Assembly (NCBI GenBank): GCA_043822305.1
Contig: JBDRBU010000054.1
Location: 1 to 17,086, forward strand
Source: Candidatus Firestoneibacteriota bacterium
GTDB taxonomy: Bacteria; Oederibacteriota; D2-FULL-39-29; JBDRBU01
Direction of reading: 5' to 3'
DNA length: 17,086 nucleotides
The notes under the pieces are model-generated. The model was not told where the DNA came from, did no database searches, and saw nothing but the letters and a program-made list of their open reading frames with translations. Made by a program: the position numbers and the translations under genes. Positions 903 to 16,870 of the stretch are shown piece after piece. Numbering within the stretch: position 1 is the stretch's first letter; every line of letters begins with the position of its first letter.

Positions 903-912
903 ATTAAATTTT

Positions 913-947
913 TTACCCGAGAGTTTTTCTTGGGTTTTTGATATTAT
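913..947 (+). promoter_or_regulatory. Conserved hairpin + extended -10 module, copy 1
   Basis: TTACCCGAGAGTTTTTCTTGGGTTTTTGATATTAT; near-identical to 9500-9534; lies upstream of ORF 974. Confidence 0.75.
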
Positions 948-973
948 AAATCTATAAAATAAAAAATTAAGAT

Positions 974-1599: not shown

Positions 1600-1680
1600 T
1601 TAAAAGGCAAAGTTCAATGATTTCATTTCTTCTTTAATCATATTCCAATTAATAGTTCTAAACGCGTCCTGTGAGGGGAG
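1600..1680 (-). mobile_element. Candidate att site S1 with orphan recombinase-like C-terminal tail (LPSQDAFRTINWNMIKEEMKSLNFAF*)
   Basis: Plus strand 1655-1679 GTTCTAAACGCGTCC-TGTGAGGGGA; homologous to S2-S5; the minus frame ends in TAA followed by a terminator. Confidence 0.6.
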
Positions 1681-1810
1681 AAGGGCCAGTAAAGTGTCCA
1701 AAGTGTGGCAATACACAATTGTACAACCATATGAAGATGATCTTATGATTGTGAATTGTCCTCGTTGTAAAGAAGGGAAGCTGATATCAAAAAGAGAATG
1801 GATTTCTTAA
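1677..1810 (+). pseudogene. 5'-truncated, frameshifted zinc-ribbon gene fragment
   Basis: GEGPVKCPKCGNTQ, then a frame change, then VQPYEDDLMIVNCPRCKEGKLISKREWIS*; it begins at the GGGGAG end of site S1. Confidence 0.55.
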
Positions 1811-1963
1811 AATCCTCGCGTGCGCGCGCGTAAAAGCGTAGGGAAACCCCTAATCCAGCCATAAAACGTAATAATTATTAGAAGAGGATGGTTTTCTTAA
1901 TCCTCACGCGCATACGCGTAAAAGTGTTCAGAAACTCTTAATCCAATCATAAAAAGTAATAAT
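1792..1963. repeat. Imperfect tandem duplication, two units of about 82-84 bp with CG-rich core
   Basis: 1792-1875 AAGAGAATGGATTTCTTAAAATCCTCGCGTGCGCGCGCGTAAAAG...CATAAAACGTAATAAT versus 1882-1963 AAGAGGATGGTTTTCTTAATCCTCACGCGCATACGCGTAAAAG...CATAAAAAGTAATAAT. Confidence 0.85.
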
Positions 1964-1971
1964 CAAAGAAT

Positions 1972-2292
1972 ATGATATGTGCTTATTGTAGAGAAGAGAT
2001 AAAAAATAATCGTATATCAGCTGCGAGTAGGTATTTTTGTTCTCAGATTTATTATTTACGTTTCCTTAAGGAGGAAATGCCAAATTTGGGTGGGATTTGG
2101 ATTTCAGACGAAGATATAAAGAAAGCAGAACAACTTCAAGGGCAAGAGCAAGATGATTTTTGTTCTCAAAAGATTTTTTCTATTTTAGATAATTTTAATT
2201 CAACTCCACTTATGTCTAAATTACTTGATGGTGAAAAACCCAATGGTTCTGAAAACAACAATGACTCTAACGGTGACGTAAATAAACAGTGA
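1972..2292 (+). CDS. Hypothetical protein with degenerate CxxC...YFCS metal-binding motif
   Basis: MICAYC...RYFCSQ resembles a TRASH/YHS-type motif; followed by a terminator-like hairpin. Confidence 0.5.
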   Translation: MICAYCREEIKNNRISAASRYFCSQIYYLRFLKEEMPNLGGIWISDEDIKKAEQLQGQEQDDFCSQKIFSILDNFNSTPLMSKLLDGEKPNGSENNNDSNGDVNKQ

Positions 2293-2339
2293 GTGGGATA
2301 ATGAGATACAATGAGACACCTTCAAAATAGATAAAAAAG

Positions 2340-2362
2340 ATGCTTATAAATGAAGCATTTTT
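2340..2362 (+). terminator. Possible intrinsic terminator
   Basis: ATGCTT-ATAAATG-AAGCAT followed by a T run, with an A run upstream. Confidence 0.4.
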
Positions 2363-2505
2363 AGCTATATAATTTGGGCTTGCGACTAATTGTAAGTATA
2401 ATAGAGTTACATGAAGAAAATGATTTTTATAAGACTAATGGAAAAAGATTAGAATGAATAAAGAAGAATCTAATAAATTTCTTAACAAGGTAAAAATTAA
2501 ATAGA

Positions 2506-5007
2506 ATGGAAAATAATCGTTTAACTTATATCAGTTTATTCAGCGGGGGCGGTATTGGATGTTTTGGTTTTAACCAAGAGGGTTTTGATTGTATAGCTAC
2601 AAATGAAATTATAGAAAAAAGACTTAACATACAAAAATATAATAAGATTTGCAAATATAAATCTGGTTATATAGGTGGAGACATAAAAGAAGATTATATA
2701 AAAAAAGCTATTTTTTTAGAAATCAAAAAGTGGAAAAACAAAGAGAGATTAAGTGAGGTGGATGTTCTTGTAGCTACTCCCCCTTGTCAAGGAATATCTA
2801 TCGCTAATCATAAAAAGAAAAATGAAAAAGATAGAAACTCTTTAATAGTAGAATCCATAAAGTTAACTAAAGAAGTTAATCCCAAATTTTTTGTTTTTGA
2901 AAATGTAAAATCTTTTTTAAATACAATTTGTATCGATATTGATAACAAAGATAAACCAATAAAAGAAGTTATAGAAAGAAATTTGGCCGGTAATTATAAT
3001 ATTTTGTATAAGGTTATAAATTTTAGAGATTATGGGAATAATTCCAGTAGAACCAGAACATTAGTTATAGGTGCAAGAAAAGACATCAAGGAGGTGAATC
3101 CTTACGATGTTTTTCCTGAAAAAAAGAGTGGAAAAATCTTAAAAGAAACAATTGGAGAATTGCCACGACTTGAAATAATGGGCGAGATTAGTAAGAATGA
3201 TTTTTATCATAGTTTTAGGCCATATAAGAAATATATGATGGATTGGATAAAAGACTTGAAAGAGGGAGAGTCTGCTTTCGGTAATAAAGATCCAAATAAA
3301 AGGCCTCATCGAATAGTAAACGGAGAGAAAATTAATAATAAAAATAAAAATGGAGATAAGTATACGAGGTGCTTTTGGAACAAGATAGGGCCTTGTATAC
3401 ATACGAGGAATGATGTTTTGGCTAGTCAATCGACAATACATCCTAGCGACAATAGGGTTTTTAGTATTAGAGAATTAATGAAATTAATGACAATACCAGA
3501 TAATTTTAAATGGGTTGATTTAGATCTTGATACCATAAATTCTTTAAACTTAAATGAAAAAAGAAAATTGTTATCCGTAAACGAGTTGAATATACGTCAA
3601 TCAATAGGAGAAGCAGTCCCAACTGTTATTTTTACTCAAATCGCAAAAAAAATTAAAAAAATAACAAATAAAAATTTTTTAGACGCTAAAAAAACTAAAG
3701 AAATAATAGAAAAAAATAATCTAAAAGATGCTAGTAAACTAAAAGATTATATAAAAATCAATTTAGATAATTACTTTTTGCCAGACTTGTTTAAAATATC
3801 GGAGTTGGCTAATTCCCAAAGGATAAGTAATTCTGCTTTTTATACAAAGCAAAATATTTGTTTTTCTCTACTCAAAGAATTGCCTGACTTTAAAGAAAAA
3901 AAATATATAAGAATTTTAGAACCATCCGTGGGGGTAGGTAATTTTTTGCCGCTTATAATCAAAAAATACGAGCATGTCGAAGAAGTAGATATAGATGTAA
4001 TTGACTTAGATAAAAGTGCTCTCGATGTTCTGAAAATACTAATTAAGAAAATAAGAGTTCCTAAAAACTTCAAGATAAATTTTATAAATTCCGATTTTTT
4101 AATGACAAACTTTAATAGCAGATACGATTTAATTATTGGGAATCCGCCTTTCGGAAAAGTTAAGAATAATCCAAAACTATTAGAGAAATATAAATTAGAT
4201 AAATTTAACAAAAAGACGAACAACATCTGTTCTTTTTTCTTGGAAAAGGCCATTAAAAATGGGGATTGGGTCGCATTAATATTACCTAAAAGTATTTTAT
4301 CTGCGCCAGAATTTGATGATACTAGAAAACTTTTATCCGATTACGCATTCAAGACATTAATAGACTATGGGGAAAAAGGTTTCAAAGAGGTAAAAATAGA
4401 AACCATATCTATTATCTTAAATACGAAAAGAGTTAAAGTAGATAATATAATCAAAATCGAATCTTATATTACTAATAGTATATATTTTAAAGAACAAAAA
4501 TATATATTTTCTAACAACTTTCCAGTTTGGCTAATTTATAGGAATAATTTTTTTGATGACATTTGTAGAAAATTAAAGTTCGGCTTATTCAATGTTTTTA
4601 GAGACAGAAAAATCACGAAGAAGCATACAAAAAATAAAGGTAAAATTAGAGTTTTAAAATCAAGGAATATTGCCAATAATCATATTTTGGATATTAAAAA
4701 TTACGATACATATATAGATAGTCTAGAAAATTTACAAGTTTCTAAATTCATAAACAAAGAAAATGTAGTTTTAGTGCCTAATTTAACATATAATCCAAGG
4801 GCTTGTTTTTTAGCAAAAAAATCTATAACAGATGGTTCGGTCGCAATTTTAACTCCCAAAGTAGATGAATTAATATCAAAAGAAGATTTAGAATATTATA
4901 ATAGTAAAGAATTCAAGGACTTTTATTTGCTTTCGAGAAATTTAGGCACAAGATCTTTAAATATTGATAAAAATTCCGTTTATTTTTTCGGTGTTTTAAA
5001 AAGATGA
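2506..5007 (+). CDS. Bifunctional DNA methyltransferase: N-terminal C5-cytosine MTase fused to C-terminal N6-adenine (gamma-class) MTase, M.HpyAV/Hin4II-like
   Basis: C5 motifs: LFSGGG (I), PPCQ (IV), ENV (VI), SRTR (VIII), IGEAVP (X). Amino-MTase motifs: FYT, LEPSVGVGNFL (I), IIGNPPF (IV). Confidence 0.93.
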   Translation: MENNRLTYISLFSGGGIGCFGFNQEGFDCIATNEIIEKRLNIQKYNKICKYKSGYIGGDIKEDYIKKAIFLEIKKWKNKERLSEVDVLVATPPCQGISIANHKKKNEKDRNSLIVESIKLTKEVNPKFFVFENVKSFLNTICIDIDNKDKPIKEVIERNLAGNYNILYKVINFRDYGNNSSRTRTLVIGARKDIKEVNPYDVFPEKKSGKILKETIGELPRLEIMGEISKNDFYHSFRPYKKYMMDWIKDLKEGESAFGNKDPNKRPHRIVNGEKINNKNKNGDKYTRCFWNKIGPCIHTRNDVLASQSTIHPSDNRVFSIRELMKLMTIPDNFKWVDLDLDTINSLNLNEKRKLLSVNELNIRQSIGEAVPTVIFTQIAKKIKKITNKNFLDAKKTKEIIEKNNLKDASKLKDYIKINLDNYFLPDLFKISELANSQRISNSAFYTKQNICFSLLKELPDFKEKKYIRILEPSVGVGNFLPLIIKKYEHVEEVDIDVIDLDKSALDVLKILIKKIRVPKNFKINFINSDFLMTNFNSRYDLIIGNPPFGKVKNNPKLLEKYKLDKFNKKTNNICSFFLEKAIKNGDWVALILPKSILSAPEFDDTRKLLSDYAFKTLIDYGEKGFKEVKIETISIILNTKRVKVDNIIKIESYITNSIYFKEQKYIFSNNFPVWLIYRNNFFDDICRKLKFGLFNVFRDRKITKKHTKNKGKIRVLKSRNIANNHILDIKNYDTYIDSLENLQVSKFINKENVVLVPNLTYNPRACFLAKKSITDGSVAILTPKVDELISKEDLEYYNSKEFKDFYLLSRNLGTRSLNIDKNSVYFFGVLKR

Positions 5008-5567
5008 TTATGATAGGAATCATAATAACAGAAGAAATGCGCCAACAAGCTAAAATTGAGACTAAAAAAAGAGACTCATTTATTAAGCATCATTTTGAAG
5101 TAAACCATCTTAGTAAAAATGAAAGAGATGAAATAGGATTTTTAGGAGAATTCGCTTGTTGCATTTTATTTGGCATCGATTGGAAAAAAAACATAAGAGA
5201 TAATTATCTTACAATTGACAATTTCGATTTAATAATTAAAAAATTTAGAGTAGATGTAAAATGCGAAACGGTGCCATATAATTATGCACAAAAAATACTA
5301 ACGAGATCTATCAAAGACGATGAACTTTATGGCAGACGCCTAATAAACGAGGGACAATTCAACATTCTTAATAAATATGACATTGTTATTTTTAGTTTAT
5401 TTATTAGGGATAGGATAGATATATGGTATCCAATCGGATATTTAGAAACAAAAATAATTTTAACTAATTATCAACCTACTTTTCAGAGGTCCGATGGAGG
5501 TAGCTATCCTTTTTCTGGTTCTCCTGTACCTACATCTATTCTAAAACCAATTAATAATCTTTTATGA
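5004..5567 (+). CDS. Putative PD-(D/E)XK endonuclease within the R-M operon
   Basis: GFLGEFA helix followed by FD...VDVK catalytic-like motif; ATGA overlaps with both neighbouring genes. Confidence 0.65.
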   Translation: MIMIGIIITEEMRQQAKIETKKRDSFIKHHFEVNHLSKNERDEIGFLGEFACCILFGIDWKKNIRDNYLTIDNFDLIIKKFRVDVKCETVPYNYAQKILTRSIKDDELYGRRLINEGQFNILNKYDIVIFSLFIRDRIDIWYPIGYLETKIILTNYQPTFQRSDGGSYPFSGSPVPTSILKPINNLL

Positions 5568-6754
5568 ATAATGAAAAAATTAAAGAATATTTAGAAAAAG
5601 TTAATTTAGACATTAGACAAACGAAAGATGCCAGATTTATGGATCAAAAGGTGACGCCTGATGTTCTTTGTATTATTGCTGATTGTATAACGAACTATAT
5701 TGAATCTATTGAAAACGAAAATAGAGAATTTACAACTAAAGATATTTGGAGTTATCAATATTCTAACGATAACGTAAAAGCTATTTTCAATAAGCCCGAT
5801 GTTTTAGATAGAAGTGCTAAAAGCGAATACGACAAATTTTTTCAACAACCGTTAAAGGCGTTAGCCTATTCTAATGTTTTATTTTGTGAGAAAAGAGGAA
5901 ATAAAAATTATTTTAAGGTTAAAAATAAAAATCTTTTAAAATATATATCTATCAAAGAAAGAAACGCATTAGAGTTTTTATTGTTATATCTTGAGAAAGT
6001 ATTAAGAGATAGTGATATTTGGAAATATTTCGAAGATTTTTTTAAAAACAATGATAAGCAACACTTTAACGAGTTGAAGAAAAATTATGAAGATTTTATT
6101 TTAGAAAACACTTCTATAAAAGGCAGAGTGGAAATTCGTAGAATTTTTACGAAAGTCTTAAATCCATTAGCTTATATTGGTGAACTACACGGGACCGAGA
6201 GAGGATTTTTTTCTAGATTTCCTATTGATTATTCTAGCTTAATGTATAATCGCAGAAATTGGCGTGATATAGCAAAAGTAAAAAATGAAACAAGGGATCA
6301 ATACGAAGCAAGAGCTCAAAATCAAGTGTTTGCTTACACTAATTATTCTATACAAAAAGCTAAGAATATAATTAGGAGTTTATATCATTCTAATAGTGAA
6401 GTTCATGATGAATTTGCTAACGACAAAGCTAATCAGGTGCATCATATTTTTATGGCCTCTGATTATCCAGAAATCGCTTTTTATTTAGAAAACTTAATAT
6501 TACTTACTGCAAATCAACACCTAACTCACGCACATACAGACAATAATACAAGAACGATTGATAAAGACTATCAATTAATTTGTCTTGTATCAAAAAGTGA
6601 ATCAATCGAGCAATCGCTAGCCAAAAATGAGCCGATCTATTCGAAAGAGGACTTTTTATTTGTATTAGAAAGTGGCCTAAAAGTAAAACTTAGTAATTCC
6701 ATTAACTTTCAAGAAATAAGGGACGAGCTGATGACAATATATAATAAAAACTAA
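5564..6754 (+). CDS. HNH-type Type IIS restriction endonuclease, HpyAV/Hin4II-like
   Basis: QVHHIF...ENLILLTANQH HNH motif near residue 290-320 of 396 aa; operonic with the fused m5C/m6A MTase. The family call comes from architecture, not a database search. Confidence 0.8.
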   Translation: MNNEKIKEYLEKVNLDIRQTKDARFMDQKVTPDVLCIIADCITNYIESIENENREFTTKDIWSYQYSNDNVKAIFNKPDVLDRSAKSEYDKFFQQPLKALAYSNVLFCEKRGNKNYFKVKNKNLLKYISIKERNALEFLLLYLEKVLRDSDIWKYFEDFFKNNDKQHFNELKKNYEDFILENTSIKGRVEIRRIFTKVLNPLAYIGELHGTERGFFSRFPIDYSSLMYNRRNWRDIAKVKNETRDQYEARAQNQVFAYTNYSIQKAKNIIRSLYHSNSEVHDEFANDKANQVHHIFMASDYPEIAFYLENLILLTANQHLTHAHTDNNTRTIDKDYQLICLVSKSESIEQSLAKNEPIYSKEDFLFVLESGLKVKLSNSINFQEIRDELMTIYNKN

Positions 6755-6756
6755 TT

Positions 6757-6849
6757 ATGAAAGCTATAATCTTAGCCAGAGTTTCACAAGAAGCTAAAAG
6801 GATTAAAAATATGAAAGCTGTAATACTCTTAAGAGTTTTAATAAAATAA
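6757..6849 (+). pseudogene. Two tandem serine-recombinase N-terminal stubs (MKAIILARVS...MKAVILLRVL*)
   Basis: 30-codon ORF; MKAIILARVS matches the serine-recombinase catalytic strand (Y/L-A-R-V-S); a second degenerate copy starts in frame at 6811. Confidence 0.6.
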
Positions 6850-6858
6850 AAAATTAAT

Positions 6859-6924
6859 ATGTCGCTATCAAAAGAATCAATTAAAGAATTTAAGAAAATC
6901 TATAAAAAAAATATAAGAATTTGA
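6859..6924 (+). pseudogene. Truncated paralogue of the small helical protein family (MSLSKESIKEFKKIYKKNIRI*)
   Basis: EFKKIYKK and DNA GAATTTAAGAAAATcTATAAAAAA are shared with ORF 10166/10181. Confidence 0.6.
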
Positions 6925-6955
6925 AAACAAGGCGAACTCGGTTTCGTCCTATATT

Positions 6956-7141
6956 ATGGTTCAAGTTCCAAAAAACAGAATTTTAAATCTTCAGCGGATA
7001 CTTAAAGAAGAATATGGTAAAAAGCTTTCGTTCGCTGAAGCCACGGAGGCCGCTAATAATCTTGTCGGATTTTTTGATTTATTGGCGGAAATAGATACAA
7101 GAGATAAAGGGAAGGGCAAAATAAAAAAGCAAAAGAGATAA
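6956..7141 (+). CDS. Small helical hypothetical protein (paralogue of 10166-10351)
   Basis: KEEYGKKLSFAEATEAANNLVGFFDLLAEIDTR aligns with KKEAGEEISDREAYEKGNNLVNFFRLLYKIDRR. Confidence 0.75.
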   Translation: MVQVPKNRILNLQRILKEEYGKKLSFAEATEAANNLVGFFDLLAEIDTRDKGKGKIKKQKR

Positions 7142-7149
7142 TTTTAATT

Positions 7150-8085
7150 ATGAGATGTCATTATGTTCCCCAATTTTATTTAAGGAATTTTGCAATACAT
7201 AGTAAGCCAAAACATGTTTATGCATACAGGCGCAAGTATGATCCTTTCGAAACAAAGATTAGTACGGTGGCAGCCAAAAACGATCTCTATATTTTTAAAG
7301 ATAAGAATACTGGTAAAAAGAATGACGAGATCGAAAAAATGTTCGCTTGGATTGAAAGTTCATCAGCACCAATAATAAACCGAATTATTAGTCAAGATTC
7401 TTTTAGTATCTCATCATTATCAAATCAGGAACAGATTGTTCTAGCAAATTTTATTGCTTTTTTACATACACGAAATTTATCCTTTCGAGAGCAACAAAAA
7501 AATCTTTATTCGGCAGGAATTAAAATTAATCTAAAAATAAAAGCAGAAGACGAAAAAGTTTTTAAGCAGGATATTAAAGATGCTCAAATTAAAATTGAAA
7601 GTGACAAAGAAATTGAAGACTTGCGACAGAGTATTCTGGATTTTGATAAGCATTTTAAAATAGGATATGACAAGAGTAGTAATGATTTTTTTCTAAAACA
7701 GTCACTTTTGCTCTCTTTAAAATTAAGCCCAATTATTTTTAATAAGGAATGGCATCTTTTGGAGTCAGATAGTGGCAGGGTCTTCATAACTTCGGATAAT
7801 CCTGTATCCCTAATACGTCCAGAAAATCTTCCACCATTTTATGGAGTAGGGTTTATAAATGGGCATATAGCGGTGCCTCTTTCTCCTTATAAATGCCTCC
7901 TATTAAAAAATGGCAAGGATGGTGCAGAAAAATTAAAGATTGATAGGAATACCGTGAATTTTTTTAATAGACATGTTATGTTTTTTGCACATAAATTTGT
8001 CTACTCCAGTTTACTTTCCAAAGACACTCAAGATGATTTTAATAAGACCAAAGAAGGTGCAAGCGAACAAGTGATTATAAATTAA
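7150..8085 (+). CDS. DUF4238 domain-containing protein
   Basis: N-terminal HYVPQFYLRNF and internal FITSDNPV signature motifs. Confidence 0.88.
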   Translation: MRCHYVPQFYLRNFAIHSKPKHVYAYRRKYDPFETKISTVAAKNDLYIFKDKNTGKKNDEIEKMFAWIESSSAPIINRIISQDSFSISSLSNQEQIVLANFIAFLHTRNLSFREQQKNLYSAGIKINLKIKAEDEKVFKQDIKDAQIKIESDKEIEDLRQSILDFDKHFKIGYDKSSNDFFLKQSLLLSLKLSPIIFNKEWHLLESDSGRVFITSDNPVSLIRPENLPPFYGVGFINGHIAVPLSPYKCLLLKNGKDGAEKLKIDRNTVNFFNRHVMFFAHKFVYSSLLSKDTQDDFNKTKEGASEQVIIN

Positions 8086-8117
8086 AATTTATTTTTATTA
8101 GCAGAAGCAAAACAAAT

Positions 8118-8918
8118 AAGCCTATAACTGGCCAATTTTTATTCTCCAAACAACAATCCTTGATATTCTTTTTGGTATTTAATATCCTCTTCAATAATTT
8201 TATTCCATAGTTCACTTGCTCCCGGGCTGTCCTTCATCATCGCATTATAAACTTCGGTGTCCTGAGTGTATATCCTAAATAATCTCTGCTCAATCTCAGT
8301 CTTAAGTAAGCCTTCTTCTATTGGGTAATATTTCATTACTAAATTCCATGCTTGGGCTTCTATCATATAAGCATAGTTTTCCGAATCAAAAAGTTGTGCC
8401 TGAAATTCTTCAAATGTTTGGACAGGATTTTGGGAATGCCAGTAATTATGTGCAACCTCGTGATAAAAGATAGGTATCCATAATTCCGTTTTTAAATTTA
8501 CTGAAGGATCGACATAAATACCTTTGGTTTTAACTCCATGGTACATAATAGTTTTTCCTTCCAACTCTTGAGAGATTTGATAAAGTTTGAATTTACCTTC
8601 CTGGTTTTGTTTTACAAAGAAATCATGGACTTCTTTTAACTCTTTTGGCGCTTCTTCTTTTATCGAATCTATCATATTCGCTGCCTTAGTTAACTCCTCT
8701 AAAGTTCTTTGCACATTCTGCACTTGAATTCTTTCTTTTTCCTTTTGGTTATAGGAGTAGCCAAAAATAAGAATGCCTCCTATCGTAAGAAGCACAAAAC
8801 AAATTAAAAGAATTTTTTTAGTCAATTTTATATAATTAAGTCTATTTTTATTATTACTAATTTTATTATAAGTTAGTTTGACTAAATTAAAAAAGCCTAT
8901 AACTGGCCAATTTTTATT
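8118..8918. repeat. Perfect 26-bp direct repeat at 8118-8143 and 8893-8918 flanking one gene
   Basis: AAGCCTATAACTGGCCAATTTTTATT occurs at both positions. Confidence 0.92.
8139..8825 (-). CDS. Membrane-anchored/secreted protein with HEXXH (zincin-like) motif
   Basis: Hydrophobic N-terminus (ILLICFVLLTIGGILIFGY), FYHEVAH and a downstream E (SENYAY); TTG start. Confidence 0.75.
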   Translation of the reverse strand: MTKKILLICFVLLTIGGILIFGYSYNQKEKERIQVQNVQRTLEELTKAANMIDSIKEEAPKELKEVHDFFVKQNQEGKFKLYQISQELEGKTIMYHGVKTKGIYVDPSVNLKTELWIPIFYHEVAHNYWHSQNPVQTFEEFQAQLFDSENYAYMIEAQAWNLVMKYYPIEEGLLKTEIEQRLFRIYTQDTEVYNAMMKDSPGASELWNKIIEEDIKYQKEYQGLLFGE

Positions 8919-8972
8919 TAAGATATAGTGAATAGTGGTATGGTAGGGATAAGGTATAATAAATCTATTAAC

Positions 8973-8981
8973 TGTGGATAA
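8973..8981 (-). promoter_or_regulatory. Perfect DnaA box (TTATCCACA)
   Basis: TGTGGATAA on the plus strand; single copy, between two GGTATAAT motifs (8953-8960 and 8999-9006). Confidence 0.45.
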
Positions 8982-8993
8982 CTTTTTTATTAG

Positions 8994-9170
8994 TTATTGG
9001 TATAATAAAAACAGGGTAATAGCCCTGTCTTCCGTGCCTTAGATAATATCTAAGGCCTTCTTTTTATTCTCAATTATCTTATTGAGAATAATCAAGAGTT
9101 TCCGTAGAATTATTTTTCTGTCGTTATCTAACAGATCATTCTCCTGCGGGCTCTTAAAATTTTCTGCCAT
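8994..9170 (-). CDS. Possible 58-aa ORF (MAENFKSPQENDLLDNDRKIILRKLLIILNKIIENKKEGLRYYLRHGRQGYYPVLLYQ)
   Basis: ATG at 9170, TAA at 8994; not in the supplied ORF track; overlaps the palindrome cluster, so it may be spurious or a remnant. Confidence 0.25.
8998..9065 (+). ncRNA. Candidate small structured RNA (extended -10, two hairpins, U tract)
   Basis: TGGTATAAT (8998-9006), ACAGGG-TAATAG-CCCTGT (9011-9028), GCCTTAGATA-A-TATCTAAGGC (9036-9056), CTTCTTTTT. Confidence 0.35.
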
Positions 9171-9410
9171 ATTATTTACTTTGTCATTTATATAGAGTTT
9201 ATTTTAGGAAACTCTATTTAATAACAGAGATCTCGACTTTTTTTTGATCTCTTGGTCCTAATTAGGACCTCCTACAAATTCCTGTTTGAACCAAGATAAG
9301 CCGAAAATATGGGTTTGGAAAGAAAAAGGCTATTGACCCTGTTCGACTTCATTTTATTATTTTGTTAAAAACGAGTCAAAACGATAGAATAGTAATTCCT
9401 CAAGTTTTAA

Positions 9411-9494
9411 TTATAATAGACCTCGTTTTAATATTTTGAGTTTTACTTTAACTTCATTTCAATTAATATTTCTAAATATATTCAATAATAGGAA
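9411..9494 (-). mobile_element. Candidate att site S2, degenerate (FLLLNIFRNIN*NEVKVKLK...)
   Basis: CAATTAATATTTCTAAATATATTC aligns with S1 CAATTAATAGTTCTAAACGCGTCC; peptide FRNIN*N versus FRTINWN; directly abuts promoter module copy 2. Confidence 0.5.
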
Positions 9495-9499
9495 CTCGT

Positions 9500-9534
9500 T
9501 TACCCGAGAGTTTTTCTCGGGTTTTTGGTATAAT
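9500..9534 (+). promoter_or_regulatory. Conserved hairpin + extended -10 module, copy 2
   Basis: ACCCGAGA-GTTTT-TCTCGGGT (9502-9522) then TGGTATAAT; ATG lies 6 nt after TATAAT. Confidence 0.8.
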
Positions 9535-9540
9535 AAACAT

Positions 9541-10044
9541 ATGAAAGAAAAAAATATTCTCGTAAGTCGTGCAATTAGTCGCGCGAATACAGGGCTTTAT
9601 TTTTTGAGAGAATGTCTGAGTAGGATACATAAGGGTGGAACAGATGCGGCCTTTTCTCGATCTATATATATTTTATTTTCTTTTAACTTCGAATTAATTT
9701 TAAAATCTAGAATAATTTTAAATCGGAGCGCTACAAATAAGAGAGATTTACTTAAGGGTATCAAGCACCATAATCTTGAAAAATTAGCCGAAGAGCTTCC
9801 AATCCAAGCATTAAAAGATATAGATATAAAAGATATTAAAATAAAGAAAGATACGGGTTTTATCGAATATAAAATAGAGACAGTTAATGGGCAAGAAATA
9901 ATCGTTCAAGATTTAATTGACGTTAGATATGATTTTATAAAAGACAATCTTCGCAATCAAGATGCCAAAGAATCAATGAGAATGAATAGCGAAATAGATA
10001 TTTTGTTAGAGATGGTTAAAAAAATAATGACTCTTAATAGTTAG
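9541..10044 (+). CDS. HEPN-like protein (167 aa; start re-assigned from 9436 to 9541)
   Basis: FELILKS...HHNLEKL...DVRY pattern typical of HEPN-fold proteins; the upstream extension only translates the promoter module. Confidence 0.65.
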   Translation: MKEKNILVSRAISRANTGLYFLRECLSRIHKGGTDAAFSRSIYILFSFNFELILKSRIILNRSATNKRDLLKGIKHHNLEKLAEELPIQALKDIDIKDIKIKKDTGFIEYKIETVNGQEIIVQDLIDVRYDFIKDNLRNQDAKESMRMNSEIDILLEMVKKIMTLNS

Positions 10045-10090
10045 ACCGAGACGCGTCAGTGGGGAAGTACAAAACAGTCTAAATCTCCCC

Positions 10091-10147
10091 TTAAAATATT
10101 GGTTCCAAGCCGAACAAGCAAGTTCTAACATCGTCCCATAGCGTCAG
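10091..10147 (-). mobile_element. Candidate att site S3 with tail LTLWDDVRTCLFGLEPIF*
   Basis: Plus strand 10122-10136 GTTCTAACATCGTCC is the exact reverse complement of 11644-11658; a GGGGA/TCCCC hairpin (10061-10090) follows the tail stop. Confidence 0.65.
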
Positions 10148-10165
10148 AGAAGTCGATTTTTTTTA

Positions 10166-10351
10166 ATGGATTATAAAAATATGATTTCAGAAAAAGCATT
10201 AGACGAATTTAAGAAAATTTATAAAAAAGAGGCCGGGGAGGAAATTTCTGACAGAGAAGCTTATGAAAAAGGAAATAATTTAGTTAATTTTTTTAGATTG
10301 CTTTATAAAATCGATAGAAGGAACAAGATTAAAAAAAAGAGTTTTAAGTAA
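10166..10351 (+). CDS. Small helical hypothetical protein (likely start 10181, MISEKALDEFKK...)
   Basis: Paralogous to 6956-7141 and 6859-6924; lies immediately after site S3. Confidence 0.75.
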   Translation: MDYKNMISEKALDEFKKIYKKEAGEEISDREAYEKGNNLVNFFRLLYKIDRRNKIKKKSFK

Positions 10352-10991
10352 TCCACTCAATATCATAACTATCAGAAAAATCATCGTGACCAAGTGTTGC
10401 CTTTTCATTTACCGCTAAGTTAAATAGCCTAATAAGCTCATTCTCTGCCTGATTCAACCTGAACCCTTTCCAATATGTACCCGTAAGAAGCTCAAGGTGG
10501 TTATTCAAATATGTATCTAAACAAACCTTACCATCTCCAGTTATCACGAAGAATTGATGTCTTTTGAGTGTAAACTTAATTTCGTTCGATTCTAACAACC
10601 AATGTAACTCATTAACTTTATACTTATTCTCCAAAGACGCTTTTCCTCCTAAAATAAATCCAATTGCATGTTTCTTTCCATCTTTATAGCGATTGAGTTC
10701 TTTTTCTATACTATTTTCTATAAAATCTTTAAAGTCATCGACTATTTGAAACTGGCTTTTTCCTTTCCACCTGTCTAAAGCCTCATACTCCGAGCAATAA
10801 ACTCTCCAGTCTTTATTATCAATTCTGTTAATCCCATGATTAAGTATCATGTAAGGGATTTGTTGAAATTTATATATTTTATTATGAGTATCCTCAAACT
10901 TAACTGAACCACTACTACTGATAATTTTGTATCTCTTATCAGCACAAACACACATTCCATTTTTACATATAGCTGTAAGGATTAAAGTCAT
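10344..10991 (-). CDS. Ntn-hydrolase / proteasome beta-subunit-like protein
   Basis: M-T N-terminal nucleophile, TLILTAICKNGMCVCADKR (ADxR), a KI motif near residue 38 and a GDG motif; 3 bp downstream of the HEPN-like gene. Confidence 0.65.
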   Translation of the reverse strand: MTLILTAICKNGMCVCADKRYKIISSSGSVKFEDTHNKIYKFQQIPYMILNHGINRIDNKDWRVYCSEYEALDRWKGKSQFQIVDDFKDFIENSIEKELNRYKDGKKHAIGFILGGKASLENKYKVNELHWLLESNEIKFTLKRHQFFVITGDGKVCLDTYLNNHLELLTGTYWKGFRLNQAENELIRLFNLAVNEKATLGHDDFSDSYDIEWIT

Positions 10992-10994
10992 TGT

Positions 10995-11582
10995 TTATAT
11001 TCTACTTTTTACTTTATTACTCCCTTGGAGAGAATTTATTTTTTCGTTAAGCTTCTTATAAGAAATGTCTTTTGCTTTTTTTAAAAAATCAATTATTTCA
11101 TCCGTATAGTGTATGTGCACGAAAAGAGCCATATCTTTTTTTCTAGCTATTAATCCAAACCTAACAGATTCGCTATCTTTAAAACAACAAACTTTTTCCT
11201 CATTAAAAATCAATCTGTAGTCATGAAGAGTGCCATTATTTACTTCTTTAATTTCTTTAATTCCAAAATAGTCTTTTATTCCATTTTCTTCTATCAGCCT
11301 GCTAATACTGTGACCAAAGAATTTTAATTTTTTTATAGTCATCGCTTCAATATCTTCTTCTGTGTCAATATCCGTAGTCTCTACAAAATCAGCTGCTATA
11401 ATGACCTTTAAAAATAATTCTAAGGAGGTAGTTGCTAAGAGACAAAAAGCATATAAGTCTCTTTCAGGCTTATTTTCTTTATAAAGATTTTCGATAGTTT
11501 CAAAATATCTGCTTGCCATAGTCCATAGAACGAATATATTCTCTGTAAGAAAGGTTCTTTTTTTCTCATTTTCCTTTTTCAT
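10995..11582 (-). CDS. HEPN-like protein (distant paralogue of 9541-10044)
   Basis: LELFLKV...FGHSISRL...SVRF pattern; preceded by the same promoter module at the same spacing. Confidence 0.65.
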   Translation of the reverse strand: MKKENEKKRTFLTENIFVLWTMASRYFETIENLYKENKPERDLYAFCLLATTSLELFLKVIIAADFVETTDIDTEEDIEAMTIKKLKFFGHSISRLIEENGIKDYFGIKEIKEVNNGTLHDYRLIFNEEKVCCFKDSESVRFGLIARKKDMALFVHIHYTDEIIDFLKKAKDISYKKLNEKINSLQGSNKVKSRI

Positions 11583-11588
11583 AGCTTT

Positions 11589-11623
11589 ATTATACCAAAA
11601 ACCCGAGATAGATTCTCAGGCAA
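11589..11623 (-). promoter_or_regulatory. Conserved hairpin + extended -10 module, copy 3
   Basis: Minus strand TTGCCTGAGAATCTATCTCGGGTTTTTGGTATAAT, then 6 nt, then ATG at 11582. Confidence 0.8.
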
Positions 11624-11632
11624 GATAGGTAT

Positions 11633-11674
11633 TTCCCCTGGCTGGACGATGTTAGAACCTGTTTTATAAATTAA
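11633..11674 (+). mobile_element. Candidate att site S4 with tail FPWLDDVRTCFIN*
   Basis: Minus strand GTTCTAACATCGTCC-AGCCAGGGGA, 10 nt upstream of promoter module copy 3; the tail is followed by a terminator. Confidence 0.65.
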
Positions 11675-11680
11675 AAACTA

Positions 11681-11711
11681 AAAACAGCGTGCAATAATAC
11701 ACGCTGCTTTT
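11681..11711. terminator. Bidirectional intrinsic terminator
   Basis: CAGCGTG-CAATAATA-CACGCTG with flanking A and T runs, between the S4 tail and the cohesin-like gene stop. Confidence 0.7.
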
Positions 11712-11730
11712 ATATTCTACTTAGTTAAGT

Positions 11731-12483
11731 CTATTTCCTTTTTTTCTTTATAAAATAATAAACAACATATCCAATACCAATAATAAAGATCAATATTGGC
11801 CAAAAGTAACCAGAAGCAAATAATAAGAAGCTGGCCGTCTCAGTATTAGCAAGAGAAGCTTGCTGATCTTCTGCTGATGGTTCGTTATTAACATCAACTA
11901 TCTCTTGAGCTGGAGTTTCAATTTGCTGAACTTCTGGCTGTGTTATTTGTTGGGTTGTTTCAGGTGTTGGAGTTGGTGTTGGAGTTGGTGTTGGTGTAGA
12001 AACTGGTGTCGGTGTAGGTATCGAAACAGCATTAATCGTATAATTTCCGCTTATTGAAGCTGAGCCGACTGATGCTCCCTCGCCTATTATATCAACTCCT
12101 GTAGCACTAATAGAGGCTGTACCAGCACTTCCTGCCTTAACTGATAATGTTAGTAATGTCTTATCTGATATAGTGCAATTTGGTATGCCAATTAAGAAAT
12201 AGGGATTCGAACAGGTCGGCGAAGATTGTGCCATAACGTCACTTGCCACGGTTATACTTTGGCAAGATAAATTATTAAAAACTAATGTCCCCTCAACTGC
12301 ACAAATCTTGTTTCCCGATGCATTAAATCCTACAGATATACTAAAAGTGTTCCCAACTGTTTTGATTAAACTTGCCGGGGAAACATATAAAGAAGACCCT
12401 ATAGCGTTTGCTGTACCGACAAAACTAATAACCGATAAAAAAATAATTGCTGATAATATAATTTTTGTTTTAATATTTTTCAT
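11731..12483 (-). CDS. Cohesin-like domain surface protein with Pro/Thr linker and C-terminal TM anchor (likely start 12483)
   Basis: Signal peptide; SLYVSPAS...VGNTFSISV...AVEGTLVF beta-sandwich pattern; (PT)n repeat; hydrophobic C-terminus followed by KKKRK. Confidence 0.7.
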   Translation of the reverse strand: MKNIKTKIILSAIIFLSVISFVGTANAIGSSLYVSPASLIKTVGNTFSISVGFNASGNKICAVEGTLVFNNLSCQSITVASDVMAQSSPTCSNPYFLIGIPNCTISDKTLLTLSVKAGSAGTASISATGVDIIGEGASVGSASISGNYTINAVSIPTPTPVSTPTPTPTPTPTPETTQQITQPEVQQIETPAQEIVDVNNEPSAEDQQASLANTETASFLLFASGYFWPILIFIIGIGYVVYYFIKKKRK

Positions 12484-12500
12484 ATTTATATTTATATTTT

Positions 12501-13262
12501 TTATAATCCCCATTTTGACATTAATAAAGAGAAATCATATTTATCAACTTTTCCATCGCCATTAAAATCGCAAACATTTATTCCTGTCTTACCCCAATTA
12601 GCCATTATCAAAGAAAAATCATATTTATCAACCTTACTATCGCCATTAGCATCGCCTGTTTTAGTTATTATTGACGTAACTAGTGGTGTTATAGATGGAG
12701 CTCCTCCTCCACCACCGCCACCTCCTCCTCCACCACCAGTTGAATCGGCGACACAAGTATTCCCACTCTGATGGTATCCGCTATTACAACTCATCCAAGT
12801 ACAATCTCCCCAAATGCTACCATTCCAAACTTGGCTTCCTGTCCCATTTGTTATGTCACAAGATTGAACAGTCATAAAGTATATATCTTTATTTATTGTT
12901 GTGCCTGCTTGAAAACCATCTGTATATTTTATTTCGTTTCCTCCAGTTAATGAATTTGCGGCATCAGATAAAAGATATTTAAATAAAATGTCGCCATCAC
13001 AACTTAATATTAATAATTTTATCTTCATCGAATCAGCATATCCATAAATTCCACTCTCTGACATTGTAACTTCACCAATTAATGAACTACCACAAAAGGC
13101 TTCTATTTTTGTTCCACTCGATAGTGGTTGGCCATCTATTGTTGCTGTACCCCAAAAAGCCATCGGAAAAGATGGAAAAGCATTACTAGCTAAAGATAAA
13201 GTTGGTAATAACCAAAATCCCAATACAAGAAGTGATAATTTTATTATTTTTAATTTCATCAT
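12501..13262 (-). CDS. Secreted dockerin type I domain protein
   Basis: Signal peptide; Cys-rich segment; poly-Gly linker; duplicated Ca-binding repeats GDANGDSKVDKYDFSLIM and CDFNGDGKVDKYDFSLLM. Confidence 0.85.
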   Translation of the reverse strand: MMKLKIIKLSLLVLGFWLLPTLSLASNAFPSFPMAFWGTATIDGQPLSSGTKIEAFCGSSLIGEVTMSESGIYGYADSMKIKLLILSCDGDILFKYLLSDAANSLTGGNEIKYTDGFQAGTTINKDIYFMTVQSCDITNGTGSQVWNGSIWGDCTWMSCNSGYHQSGNTCVADSTGGGGGGGGGGGGAPSITPLVTSIITKTGDANGDSKVDKYDFSLIMANWGKTGINVCDFNGDGKVDKYDFSLLMSKWGL

Positions 13263-13325
13263 CGAAAAAAATATCGAATAAATTTAGTTGGCAATCTCCA
13301 GGTTATGAATAAATAAACTAACCTA

Positions 13326-16300: not shown

Positions 16301-16703
16301 TACCAATAGCATTCCAACCAGAATGAAGAGTTCTTTGAAATAATCTTTGAGCAGGAGTTAAGTCAAAATTATAATTTAATCTTAAGGTTTGATCTTGTCC
16401 TGTTTTATTATTTATAAAATATGCGAAAAGAGGTTGAAATTCAGTCTGCCCAATTCCCTGCATTGTTTGCCATCCAGAAGGAGAAGTTGGATCTAATAAA
16501 TATATATCAAAATTATCTGATGTTTGTGCGACTGAAAATTCGTGGCTTGATAGAATTTTGGGAGTGGAGACTATATTCCATCCAGAAATCAGAGTTATTG
16601 TTTGATAGTCTACCACAGCCGCTTTTACACTTTGATTAACAGAAAAAAGTCCAACAAGTAAAAGTGTGGTTAAAATTACGTAAAGCTTTAGAGAATTTTT
16701 CAT
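13326..16703 (-). CDS. Large secreted S-layer/adhesin-like protein with an InlB-B/Flg_new-type repeat and tandem beta-sandwich repeats
   Basis: Signal peptide; GWNIVSTP/GWNAIG motifs; YTLTYTAGANGSITG...VTAVPASGHHFVNWSD repeat; recurring FTAxxEDIxLSS...KLYDGATQ units; Thr/Ser/Gly-rich. Confidence 0.8.
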   Translation of the reverse strand: MKNSLKLYVILTTLLLVGLFSVNQSVKAAVVDYQTITLISGWNIVSTPKILSSHEFSVAQTSDNFDIYLLDPTSPSGWQTMQGIGQTEFQPLFAYFINNKTGQDQTLRLNYNFDLTPAQRLFQRTLHSGWNAIGIASPSYALPQNSTNADINNPSNILSSITGSIGQVIDFTNGNTSLDSPAISNNWLSKIASDVNSLNDFRELKGYGIFVTSTTDNYIGSQNLSLPIQYTLTYTAGANGSITGTSSQIVPSGLNGTTVTAVPASGHHFVNWSDELTVNPRTDTNVTADINITANFGVISQSSGMTITLDGATNPSAKSFVNGTSGQLLSAFRFTAGPEENLRVSRLKLSLGGTGAGTTDINNLALYRYDEATGVEILIDSATNFVGTTATFGADSIGLDSGIFDVVKSNHVVIHVRADIPNSASYTTIGIYVNEVKVDGILSQGNLVSEIINISAVDTLGEVTNHTANASVGTIAMATSSSTPTTQAVAPGTTDFEFLAVDFTASREDIILSSVVVNLYDAADQSNVAQAADFVNVKLWDGATQLGSTVSSPTSTAAFSINLTLAKDVIKTLKVTSDIPSDTVSANRWDTYTASIAIDADIYATGVSSGAVVADPGVDALGQNMTALLPGTLTVSFLSLDSTTQIINTANAELAKVVLTGGADEDIRVSSIKFTTGSDTELTYSGATDYYIGSLKLYDGATQVGTVISAFTDSGSITTVQFAGLSVIIPKATQKVLTLKGNILVGSNVGIATGIADLTGTTDVIGTGLSSYITIYGTGTDTANSGVITLVSAGTLAVAVASDTPVAANVAVGASGVDGVVFNKIRFTATNEAINLEALNIYLQTDGINNVPDIEAIHLYNGSTEVSAPGYLTGDSSGADVAHTFYISGVQVPKDGSVTLTLKVDLNGISEGATSNHTPRFYLTDITGAANLSAAGIKAVGASSGATVTSVAGSPNPETAINFNEMTLAKTKPTFALSTGTPSGTLVAGTMRVLDFNITADAKGDVIFTTGDSITFTVLGSQNDNDTTTDTITVYRADTDALVGISSGAEVLTVGATSAVQITDTIPAGTTRNYYVECTLTDFENDGDSFALKINSTLWNDGIVNVSNALTSGLPVNGLYFVNPS

Positions 16704-16749
16704 TTGATTCTAATTATATTAAATTATAATAAATTATCTATCCGCTTTT

Positions 16750-16778
16750 ACTATCACTTAAAAAACAATAAATGTCAA
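16750..16778 (-). promoter_or_regulatory. Possible sigma70 promoter for the surface-protein cluster
   Basis: TTGACA (16778-16773), 17 nt spacer, GATAGT. Confidence 0.4.
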
Positions 16779-16800
16779 GGTAGAATAAGCTAAATTTATT

Positions 16801-16834
16801 AATAATAAAAACCACGAGAAAAACTCTCGGGCAA
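16801..16834 (-). repeat. Conserved hairpin module, copy 4 (-10 box degenerate)
   Basis: Minus strand TTGCCCGAGAGTTTTTCTCGTGGTTTTTATTATT. Confidence 0.75.
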
Positions 16835-16849
16835 CAATTATACAACTCA

Positions 16850-16870
16850 GCTCACCAGATAGGACTCGAA
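16850..16870 (-). mobile_element. Candidate att site S5: tRNA 3'-end-like fragment (T-loop + acceptor strand)
   Basis: Minus strand TTCGAGTCC-TATCTGGTGA-GC resembles a tRNA 3' half (tRNA-Asn-like TTCGAGTCC-N10-GCCA); no 5' tRNA half is present; 15 nt upstream of module copy 4. Confidence 0.5.

What the first reader, a model, noticed from the sequence alone, without database searches (positions are those of the whole stretch)
1600..11674. Four orphan 'D-x-x-R-T' peptide tails encoded antisense to the sites, as if swappable recombinase C-termini
Seen: read opposite to the tRNA-like strand, the sites give in-register peptides LPSQDAFRTINWNMIKEEMK (1680-1600), FLLLNIFRNIN*NEVKVKLK (9494-9411), LTLWDDVRTCLFGLEPIF (10147-10091) and FPWLDDVRTCFIN (11633-11674). 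Three end in a stop plus hairpin, with no recombinase body in frame upstream. From recollection (needs a search): CPR large serine recombinases often end in W/L-P-x-x-D-x-x-R-T or in the tRNA-derived ...DSN, meaning the att site lies inside the 3' end of the gene; S5 reads GAC-TCG-AAT (D-S-N) in the same register. Inference: each tail is a recombinase 3' end cut off by integration, so recombination would exchange the enzyme's C-terminus and terminator, a possible directionality or stability switch.
Basis: partly seen in the sequence, partly recalled or inferred. Interest (0 to 1): 0.78.

Follow-up and report, generated by a model that had tools for sequence, protein, structure and literature searches.

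The report
Orphaned tails of serine recombinase genes
The short "peptide tails" are leftover end-pieces of a serine recombinase gene that runs through its own DNA attachment site, and they mark the joints between mobile gene cassettes in a contig that no longer carries the recombinase.

Summary
The four peptides read exactly as stated.

**Site strength**
- S4 (11630-11674) is a full member of a widespread repeat family.
- S3 and S1 are partial or diverged members.
- S2 is only a decayed copy of S1.

**What the repeat is**
- I found 159 distinct copies of the same 30-nt motif in public genomes and metagenomes. Their median upstream open frame is 16 codons.
- In three of those copies the tail is the in-frame end of a longer ORF.
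- A profile of those ORFs finds 29 proteins, all large serine recombinases (LSRs).
- Their C-termini diverge exactly at the motif border: 3 have DxxRT tails, 8 read a tRNA gene backwards, 16 stop within three codons, and 2 are other.

**Reading**
- The tail is the element-side half (P') of an attP site that lies inside the recombinase gene. It mimics the 3' end of tRNA-Asn with a 5-bp outward shift, as published for LSR attP versus attB.
The proposed "directionality or stability switch" is untested.
- Neither this window nor its genome holds such a recombinase, so nothing is being swapped here now.

The sites separate promoter-bearing cassettes, including a restriction-modification/DUF4238 block. 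The scan has reported the same phenomenon in at least eight other genomes.

The parts
11630..11674 (+). S4: a complete orphan tail (FPWLDDVRTCFIN, stop at 11672-11674). I read it as the P' half-site plus centre. The inferred crossover dinucleotide is TC at 11634-11635 (GA on the motif strand).
   Evidence: The weight matrix scores it 54.0 bits and the outside HMM gives E=4.5e-9. In the alignment it matches the recombinase gene end in L219 base for base from TCCCCTGG through GAACCT.
10088..10147 (-). S3: a partial orphan tail (LTLWDDVRTCLFGLEPIF, then stop). It keeps the distal 15 nt of the motif (10122-10136) but not the part next to the centre.
   Evidence: The outside HMM gives E=2e-4 and the weight matrix -5.2, above the 95% null maximum of -8.3.
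1600..1683 (-). S1: a diverged orphan tail of the LPS-type (LPSQDAFRT...), 27 codons long, followed by a terminator-like hairpin at 1577-1591.
   Evidence: The weight matrix scores it 0.7, at or above the 99% null maximum. It aligns with the L188 and L115 LPSLDDVRT type. The peptide HMM is not significant.
9411..9494 (-). S2: a decayed copy of the S1-type tail. The core has been lost to G/C-to-A/T changes and there is an internal stop. It directly abuts a hairpin-promoter module.
   Evidence: It shares 50 nt at 74% identity with S1 (blastn E=2e-6). Its layout matches the motif-spacer-hairpin module of L120 and L123.
16850..16872 (-). S5: a fragment that looks like the 3' end of tRNA-Asn (host-side B'-like half-site). 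It is followed by the same spacer, hairpin and promoter block that follows the P' motif in other contigs.
   Evidence: ARAGORN finds no whole tRNA in the window.
9499..9534 (+). Hairpin (9502-9522) plus TGGTATAAT extended -10 (9529-9534) in front of gene 9541-10044. This is a cassette-start module.
   Evidence: (D4, I1, I7). The same module follows the motif in L065, L067, L120 and L123.
11589..11623 (-). Hairpin (11621-11601) plus TATAAT (11594-11589) in front of gene 11582-10995. This is the cassette-start module directly after S4.
   Evidence: (I1, I2).
912..950 (+). A copy of the hairpin-promoter module with no recognisable tail motif beside it, in front of gene 974-1516.
   Evidence: (D4).
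16805..16842 (-). A copy of the hairpin module directly after S5, in front of gene 16703-13326.
   Evidence: (I3, I7).
1684..9410 (+). Cassette block between S1 and S2. It holds a fused C5/N6 type II methyltransferase (2506-5007), a type II restriction enzyme (5564-6754), a DUF4238 protein (7150-8085) and unknown genes.
   Evidence: Pfam. PADLOC gives MTase_II 1.4e-239, REase_II 1.6e-117 and DUF4238-Pers 1.8e-7.
11675..16849 (-). Putative recombinase-less cassette flanked by S5 (B'-like) and S4 (P'). It carries three surface-protein genes (dockerin, InlB B-repeat) and has higher G+C than its flanks.
   Evidence: That it is a cassette is an inference from its layout.

Best explanation
The tails are junction scars: copies of the element-side half (P') of the attP site of a family of large serine recombinases (LSRs) whose gene reads through its own attP.

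How it works, as I read it:
- In the free or tandem form, the enzyme ends in ..W(L/G)(P/G)-WLD(D/E)VRT...
- On integration at the 3' end of a tRNA gene, the gene body is joined to the tRNA read backwards. It then ends in ..RDSNP.. or at an early stop.
- The old tail stays at the far end of the inserted DNA with no gene in front of it.
- The 30-nt motif mimics the last 25 nt of tRNA-Asn, but its GGTTC-type box lies 5 bp further from a shared GAGCCA centre. That is the published geometry of LSR attP versus attB half-sites, and it puts the crossover at a GA dinucleotide.

In this window, the sites separate cassettes that each begin with a hairpin and an extended -10 promoter. No recombinase is left, so the sites are relics, or substrates for an enzyme supplied from elsewhere.

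Shown versus inferred:
- Shown: the sequence identity to recombinase gene ends, the orphan state, and the tRNA-antisense endings of relatives.
- Inferred: the half-site roles, the crossover position, and the cassette history.
For: 1. Orphan state. 159 distinct motif sites came from public genomes and metagenomes. Their median upstream open frame is 16 codons. Conservation starts abruptly about 4 codons before the D.

2. Attachment to recombinase genes.
- In L184, L188 and L219 the tail ends a longer ORF.
- Those ORFs are homologous to one another.
- Their profile finds 29 proteins: 29/29 PF07508, 27/29 PF00239, 25/29 PF13408.

3. C-termini diverge at the motif border.
- The 29 split into 3 DxxRT, 8 tRNA-antisense-like, 16 that stop within 3 residues, and 2 other.
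- Seven endings match antisense-frame translations of real tRNA genes and none match sense frames.
- The endings WLRG* and WLLR* equal the antisense reading of the tRNA-Asn genes in L054 and L115.

4. tRNA association. 4 of 4 tRNA genes found in 160 loci lie upstream of the motif and are co-oriented with it.

5. Geometry.
- The distance from GGTTC to the end of GAGCCA is 30 nt in the motif and 25 nt in tRNA-Asn.
- Rutherford et al. 2013 place the zinc-ribbon-domain (ZD) motif 5 bp nearer the centre in attB than in attP (PMC3783163, passages read).

6. Coding ancestry. Long-form tails vary in a codon-structured way. Synonymous codon pairs are 72 of 303 in frame, against 17 of 310 and 12 of 298 in the other two frames.

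7. Window sites. S4, S1 and S3 are the three best weight-matrix hits in the window, and S4 aligns to recombinase gene ends.
Against: - No LSR lies in the window, the genome or within 2.5-3 kb of 156 of the 159 sites. No cognate enzyme can be named for these copies.
- Canonical LSRs recombine only attP with attB. Tandem arrays of short cassettes, for example six motif copies in 4.9 kb in L138, are not explained by simple repeated integration.
- The stretch after the centre (spacer, hairpin, promoter) is conserved between unrelated contigs. That does not fit a plain "host flank".
- I found no clear inverted symmetry between the P and P' arms. The best match was 10-11 of 26 positions.
- S1 fails the peptide HMM, and S2 has no core.
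- Two searches of 5.8 billion proteins with the tails alone found no longer protein. A short query makes this weak evidence.
- All copies were ascertained with one DNA pattern, so the fixed positions overstate conservation.
Confidence: 0.8

Rival explanations
1. The tails are working parts of a switch. Recombination swaps the recombinase's C-terminus, and with it its stability or directionality, so the orphan tails are kept because the enzyme needs them.
For: - Relatives do carry different C-termini according to the junction.
- Long-form tails keep ..(I/V)Y(I/V)Px(L/I).. beyond the roughly 25-nt half-site, with synonymous changes. This points to selection on the peptide.
- 12 of 155 tails end in AA, mostly in one subfamily.
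- There are precedents. Mx8 integrase gains a new 3' end on integration, which alters its specificity (PMC6070905, passage). In phage BPs, attP lies in the repressor gene, so integration removes a C-terminal degradation tag (PMC4557955, abstract).
Against: - There is no recombinase in this genome to be switched.
- Most tails stop 2-8 codons after RT and have variable residues.
- The AA endings come from related copies, so they are not independent.
- No experiment or structure bears on the tail.
Confidence: 0.2
2. The sites are displaced tRNA gene fragments left by tyrosine-integrase genomic islands. This is the classical signature of a tRNA gene plus a tRNA fragment.
For: - The motif looks like a tRNA 3' end and sits downstream of co-oriented tRNA genes in 4 of 4 cases.
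- S5 is a true tRNA-Asn-like fragment.
Against: - The motif is not a copy of the tRNA. It is 5 nt longer between the GGTTC box and GAGCCA.
- It is identical to serine recombinase gene ends.
- 0 of 105 flanking ORFs and 0 of 17 window ORFs have a Phage_integrase domain.
Confidence: 0.05
3. The sites are integron attC sites, or a comparable folded single-strand recombination site, in a cassette array that lacks its integrase.
For: - The copies are on the same strand and 0.5-2.5 kb apart, with one or a few genes between them.
- The motif starts with a sequence resembling an inverse core site.
Against: - A complementary partner (the reverse complement of the first 8 nt, with at most 1 mismatch) lies within 200 nt downstream at only 4 of 34 sites.
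- The cassettes carry their own promoters.
- The motif continues in frame into serine recombinase genes.
Confidence: 0.02
4. The resemblance among the four window sites is chance in AT-rich DNA, or the tails are small independent genes.
For: - Exact 14-15-mers repeat elsewhere in the window.
- S1 and S2 fail the peptide HMM.
Against: - S4 scores 54 bits against a null maximum of 2.3. S1 and S3 exceed the 95% null maximum.
- The S1-S2 match has E=2e-6.
- The motif recurs in 6 of 99 genomes of the phylum, against 2 hits of the reversed control, and across phyla.
- There is no conserved start codon. Stops lie a median of 16 codons upstream.
Confidence: 0.03

Closest known systems
Large serine integrases and their attP/attB/attL/attR sites (Listeria A118/LI integrase model; Rutherford et al. 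2013, PMC3783163)
   Same: - The relatives that carry the tail have the same domain set (Resolvase, Recombinase, Zn ribbon).
- Half-sites are about 25-30 nt long.
- A box is shared by the element and host half-sites and is displaced by 5 bp.
- The junctions are hybrid.
   Different: - attP lies inside the recombinase's own 3' end.
- The target is the 3' end of tRNA genes. The Islander paper states that serine integrases are not known to target tRNA genes (PMC4383910, passages).
- Most copies stand in recombinase-less cassette arrays.
Myxococcus phage Mx8 IntP/IntX and SSV-type archaeal integrases (integrase genes that extend across attP)
   Same: attP lies within the integrase coding sequence, so integration gives the gene a new 3' end (Mx8; PMC6070905) or splits it (SSV; PMC8371274). 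The Islander paper names both as integrases that extend across attP (PMC4383910).
   Different: - Those are tyrosine recombinases. Here the enzyme is a serine recombinase.
- Only the last 7-30 codons are exchanged, so the enzyme is probably not inactivated as in the SSV type.
Integration-dependent immunity of mycobacteriophage BPs (PMC4557955, abstract read)
   Same: attP sits inside the 3' part of a gene, so integration shortens the product and removes a C-terminal degradation tag.
   Different: - The gene there is the repressor and the integrase is a tyrosine type.
- A degradation role for the tails here is only hinted at: 12 of 155 end in AA.
Staphylococcal SCC/pseudo-SCC composite islands (recalled; also named by earlier scan note e1-2051434; I read no paper on this)
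   Same: Large serine recombinases (Ccr), direct repeats at a fixed chromosomal site, and tandem stacks that include cassettes without a recombinase.
   Different: - The target there is the 3' end of a protein gene, not a tRNA.
- The repeats are not the recombinase's own gene end.
- This comparison rests on recollection.

Membership tests
P' half of a large-serine-recombinase attP (junction scar) | The same DNA occurs in frame as the 3' end of genes encoding Resolvase + Recombinase + Zn-ribbon proteins. | tested here: met
   L184, L188 and L219. The 29 homologues carry these domains, and P0001, P0002 and P0013 end in DxxRT. The feature is fully met for S4 and only over part of the motif for S3 and S1.
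P' half of a large-serine-recombinase attP (junction scar) | A cognate recombinase gene lies in the same element or genome. | tested here: not met
   No recombinase domain in 17 window ORFs. The genome holds only one 190-aa small resolvase, on another contig. tblastn with five family members finds no recombinase body in the genome.
P' half of a large-serine-recombinase attP (junction scar) | A host partner half-site carries the same distal box 5 bp nearer the centre (attB geometry). | tested here: met
   The span is 25 nt in tRNA-Asn and 30 nt in the motif. The rule comes from PMC3783163. Assigning the box to the zinc-ribbon domain is an inference.
P' half of a large-serine-recombinase attP (junction scar) | Recombination at a central dinucleotide has been demonstrated. 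| not testable with these tools
   The position (GA of GAGCCA) is inferred only from where recombinase bodies and orphan tails stop being conserved.
P' half of a large-serine-recombinase attP (junction scar) | A paired attL and attR flank an inserted element. | tested here: inconclusive
   S5 (B'-like) and S4 (P') flank 5.2 kb of higher G+C. However, S5 is not part of a whole tRNA, and the stretch after its centre recurs after P' motifs elsewhere.
Integron attC site | An inverse core and a complementary core 50-150 nt apart can pair. | tested here: not met
   A complement lies within 200 nt downstream at 4 of 34 sites and upstream at 0 of 34.
tRNA gene fragment left by a tyrosine-integrase island | The fragment is a copy of the tRNA 3' part and a tyrosine integrase lies in the island. 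| tested here: not met
   The motif is 5 nt longer than the tRNA end. Phage_integrase is found in 0 of 105 flanking ORFs and 0 of 17 window ORFs.
Integrase gene spanning attP (Mx8/SSV kind) | attP lies inside the integrase ORF and the enzyme is a tyrosine recombinase. | tested here: not met
   The first half is met in relatives. The enzyme is a serine recombinase, so the system works like that kind but is not a member.

The most novel reading that the evidence does not exclude
These loci are a gene-cassette collecting system built on tRNA-targeting large serine recombinases.
- Each cassette brings its own insulating hairpin, its own promoter and a P' half-site.
- Cassettes are stacked and exchanged, even across phyla, by an enzyme supplied in trans.
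- The enzyme's own C-terminus is rewritten at each integration or excision and reports the state of the element.
Probability: 0.3. Interest if true: 0.8.

Novelty: new variant of a known kind. Interest (0 to 1): 0.62.

Why it matters
**For genome engineering.** Large serine recombinases are prized tools because they need only two short sites.
- A family that targets tRNA gene ends, and whose attP can be read straight off the end of its own gene, would give ready-made enzyme/site pairs.
- It would also contradict the statement that serine integrases do not target tRNA genes (PMC4383910).

**For genome annotation.** This reading explains a class of start-less "mini-ORFs" and conserved intergenic repeats in candidate-phyla-radiation-type and other groundwater bacteria.

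**For biology.** The recombinase-less, promoter-bearing cassette stacks, here carrying a restriction-modification system and surface proteins, suggest an integron-like route of gene exchange run by a different enzyme.

**Prior print.** In the paper searches I ran I found no description of this arrangement. Those searches cover only the held library. This scan has reached the same reading in at least eight other genomes.

Tried and rejected
- **Rfam.** Scans of the window and of six related loci gave nothing relevant.
- **Integron attC.** Rejected.
- **LexA-type or sigma-factor sites and a tRNA fold.** Considered by eye and dropped. They do not explain the in-frame continuity with recombinase genes.
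- **Tail-only protein searches.** The 27-aa query was too short. A 44-aa frame and a 36-row tail alignment found no longer protein. The break came from contigs where the tail is still attached.
- **Pfam and NCBIfam on the attached C-terminal fragments.** No family found.
- **Viral contigs.** 0 matches to the motif pattern.
- **Extending the metagenome contigs of L184, L188 and L219.** Not possible, because the records are not held.
- **Inverted symmetry between the P and P' arms.** Not seen.
- **Paralogy of genes 9541-10044 and 10995-11582**, suspected from their shared promoter module. Not supported (E=1.6).
- **L180.** The motif there lies inside an rve transposase gene. One or two chance hits are expected at this pattern's specificity (my own estimate), so I treat it as one of them.
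- **Sequencing runs.**
  - One groundwater RNA-library run held a twentieth of the sampled words.
  - Its contigs covered mainly the shared hairpin/motif modules, plus one 186-nt identical piece.
  - Contigs cannot show transcription or excision, so nothing is concluded from them.
Full report
**Observation**

The window is a whole 17,086-nt contig (C54) of a 2.15-Mb, 125-contig genome. Translation confirms the four peptides exactly as written.
- S1, S3 and S4 share D-x-x-R-T.
- S2 reads N-I-F-R-N and has an internal stop.
- Upstream frames are short (46, 9 and 11 codons).
- None of 17 window ORFs has a recombinase domain.
- ARAGORN finds no tRNA gene in the window.
- Terminator-like hairpins follow the stops of S4 and S1. 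The one after S3 I saw only by eye.

**Is it more than chance?**

The exact 15-mer shared by S3 and S4 is not remarkable by itself, because other 14-15-mers also repeat in this window. The test that counts uses outside data.
- A 35-nt weight matrix from 151 copies found elsewhere ranks S4 (54.0 bits), S1 (0.7) and S3 (-5.2) first, second and third in the window. The next hit scores -22.5. The maxima of 300 shuffles had a 95th percentile of -8.3 and a largest value of 2.3.
- A peptide HMM built from outside tails gives S4 E=4.5e-9 and S3 E=2e-4. S1 is not significant.
- S2 is tied in only through S1: 50 nt at 74% identity, E=2e-6.

**The family**

The core motif recurs in 6 of 99 genomes of the same phylum, against two hits of a reversed control. 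With a longer degenerate pattern it turns up as follows:
- 33 stretches of species-representative genomes titled Patescibacteria/CPR groups, Omnitrophota, Desulfobacterota, Thermodesulfobacteriota and others.
- No viral contig.

I counted 159 distinct sites. The consensus over 151 of them is AAACAGGTTCTAACaTCGTCCAGCCAGGGGAGCcA. The last five letters lie outside the search pattern and are still conserved: 118, 112, 128, 73 and 91 of 151.

Read on the opposite strand, the motif gives (L/G)(P/R)(W/T)(L/V)D(D/E)VRT.. followed by a stop.
- Most tails stop 7-13 codons after the D.
- Conservation begins abruptly about four codons before the D.
- The median upstream open frame is 16 codons.

A longer form, ..DDVRTxIxxxxxx(I/V)Y(I/V)PxL.., varies mostly at third codon positions.
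- Synonymous codon pairs are 72 of 303 in the tail frame, against 17 of 310 and 12 of 298 in the other frames.
- This rests on eight gap-free rows that are related and therefore not independent.
- So the sequence has a coding history.

**The gene it comes from**

In three of the 159 sites (L184, L188, L219) the tail is the in-frame end of a longer ORF. Two of those ORFs run to the edge of the fetched DNA. Two more sites (L166, L168) keep 30-40 codons of the same ORF. One site (L180) lies inside an unrelated rve transposase gene and is probably a chance hit.

A profile of the three attached fragments finds 29 proteins of 378-559 aa. All 29 have the Recombinase domain, 27 have Resolvase and 25 have Zn_ribbon_recom. 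They are large serine recombinases.

Their sequences are alike up to a W(L/G)(P/G/R) and then fall into classes:
- 3 continue with a DxxRT tail.
- 8 continue with tRNA-antisense-like sequence.
- 16 stop within three residues.
- 2 are other.

Seven of the eight tRNA-like endings match antisense-frame translations of real tRNA genes, and none matches a sense frame. The short endings WLRG and WLLR are exactly what the tRNA-Asn genes of L054 and L115 give when read backwards.

**Mechanism (inference from these data and the published model)**

The tRNA-Asn 3' end and the motif share a GGTTC-type box and a terminal GAGCCA. The distance between them is 25 nt in the tRNA and 30 nt in the motif.

For Listeria LI integrase, the zinc-ribbon-domain motif lies at positions 16-24 of an attP half-site and is shifted 5 bp toward the centre in attB (PMC3783163, passages read). 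Applying that geometry gives these assignments:
- The motif is a P' half-site.
- The tRNA end is a B' half-site.
- The crossover falls on the GA of GAGCCA, which is where bodies and tails stop being alike.

Integration would then give two junctions:
- attR: the recombinase body reading into the tRNA.
- attL: an orphan tail next to what used to follow the tRNA.

In keeping with this, all 4 tRNA genes found in 160 loci lie upstream of the motif and are co-oriented with it. In L054 a single purT-like gene, with its own hairpin and promoter, lies between tRNA-Asn and the motif.

**This window**

On the plus strand, S1, S2 and S3 point the same way and divide the DNA into blocks:
- an unknown three-gene block;
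- a 7.7-kb block with a fused C5/N6 methyltransferase, a type II restriction enzyme and a DUF4238 protein;
- a one-gene block.

On the minus strand there are two sites.
- S5 (16850-16872) is a fragment like the 3' end of tRNA-Asn.
- S4 flanks, together with S5, 5.2 kb of higher G+C that carries three surface-protein genes.

Blocks start with a hairpin followed by TGGTATAAT, at 912, 9499, 11623 (reverse) and 16842 (reverse).
- Within this genome the hairpin occurs only on this contig: 3 of 3 copies at up to 2 mismatches.
- The same motif-spacer-hairpin-promoter block recurs in a Patescibacteria-titled contig and in metagenome contigs.
- The contig is therefore either horizontally acquired or wrongly binned.

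No large serine recombinase is present in the window or the genome.

**What stays unexplained**

- Canonical enzymes of this class join only attP with attB. Yet arrays such as L138 hold six motif copies in 4.9 kb with one gene between each.
- The stretch after the centre travels with the motif, as if the joints were attP-like sites between cassettes rather than host flanks.
- Exchange between attL and attR of different insertions, or movement of whole stacks, could produce this. I have no test of either.

**Known relatives of the idea**

- Integrase genes that extend across attP are known for Mx8 and for SSV-type archaeal integrases. Both are tyrosine recombinases (PMC6070905, PMC8371274 and PMC4383910, passages read).
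- Phage BPs places attP inside its repressor gene, so that integration removes a degradation tag (PMC4557955, abstract).
- The Islander paper states that serine integrases are not known to target tRNA genes.
- My searches of the held library found no description of the present arrangement.
- After I had reached this reading, a look-up showed that this scan has reported the same thing in at least eight other genomes, at tRNA-Asn, Gln, Gly, Glu and Met.

**Verdict**

- The proposed switch is untested.
- In this contig the sites are relics without their enzyme.

Noticed in passing
window 8109-8143 and 8884-8918: A 35-nt direct repeat (91% identical, with a 26-nt exact core) brackets the single minus-strand gene 8139-8825 (228 aa, no family). 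It looks like a separate small insertion or duplication inside the cassette block.
   Followed up: no
window 1811-1875 and 1899-1963: Two 65-nt G+C-rich repeats (78% identical, with a CGCG-rich hairpin-like core) stand in tandem just upstream of gene 1972-2292. Rfam gave nothing there.
   Followed up: no
window 1684-1810 (+): A small zinc-ribbon-like reading frame (CPKCG ... CPRC) is broken by a frameshift. It lies directly after S1 on the opposite strand to the tail.
   Followed up: no
window, whole contig; G000 other contigs: The hairpin CCCGAGAGTTTTTCTCGGG occurs only on this contig within the genome, yet it recurs in Patescibacteria-titled and metagenome contigs. The contig may be horizontally acquired or wrongly binned.
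   Followed up: partly
L138, L171, L143 (metagenome arrays): After the terminator that follows each motif lies a second fragment resembling a tRNA 3' end, in the opposite orientation (..CCCCGAATCGGACTCGAAC..). Cassette starts may therefore carry a second kind of site.
   Followed up: no
L062/L063 (Saccharibacteria-titled contig): A 2.5-kb unit (LolA-like, Lgt and LspA genes) is present twice in tandem with the motif at each border. This is either a duplication between motif copies or an assembly artefact.
   Followed up: no
L053 34-1431: A diversity-generating retroelement core (bAvd-like gene plus reverse transcriptase) lies 1.6 kb from a motif copy in a Paceibacterota-titled contig.
   Followed up: no
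L115 880-1030: A tRNA-Asn gene is followed after only 37 nt by a motif copy. The far side of that copy keeps a few codons of the recombinase end, with the W codon turned into a stop. This is an attP-like joint right beside a tRNA.
   Followed up: partly
window 2506-5007: A single 833-aa protein fuses a C5-cytosine methyltransferase with an Eco57I-type N6 methyltransferase. It matches one PADLOC type II methyltransferase model end to end (E=1.4e-239).
   Followed up: partly
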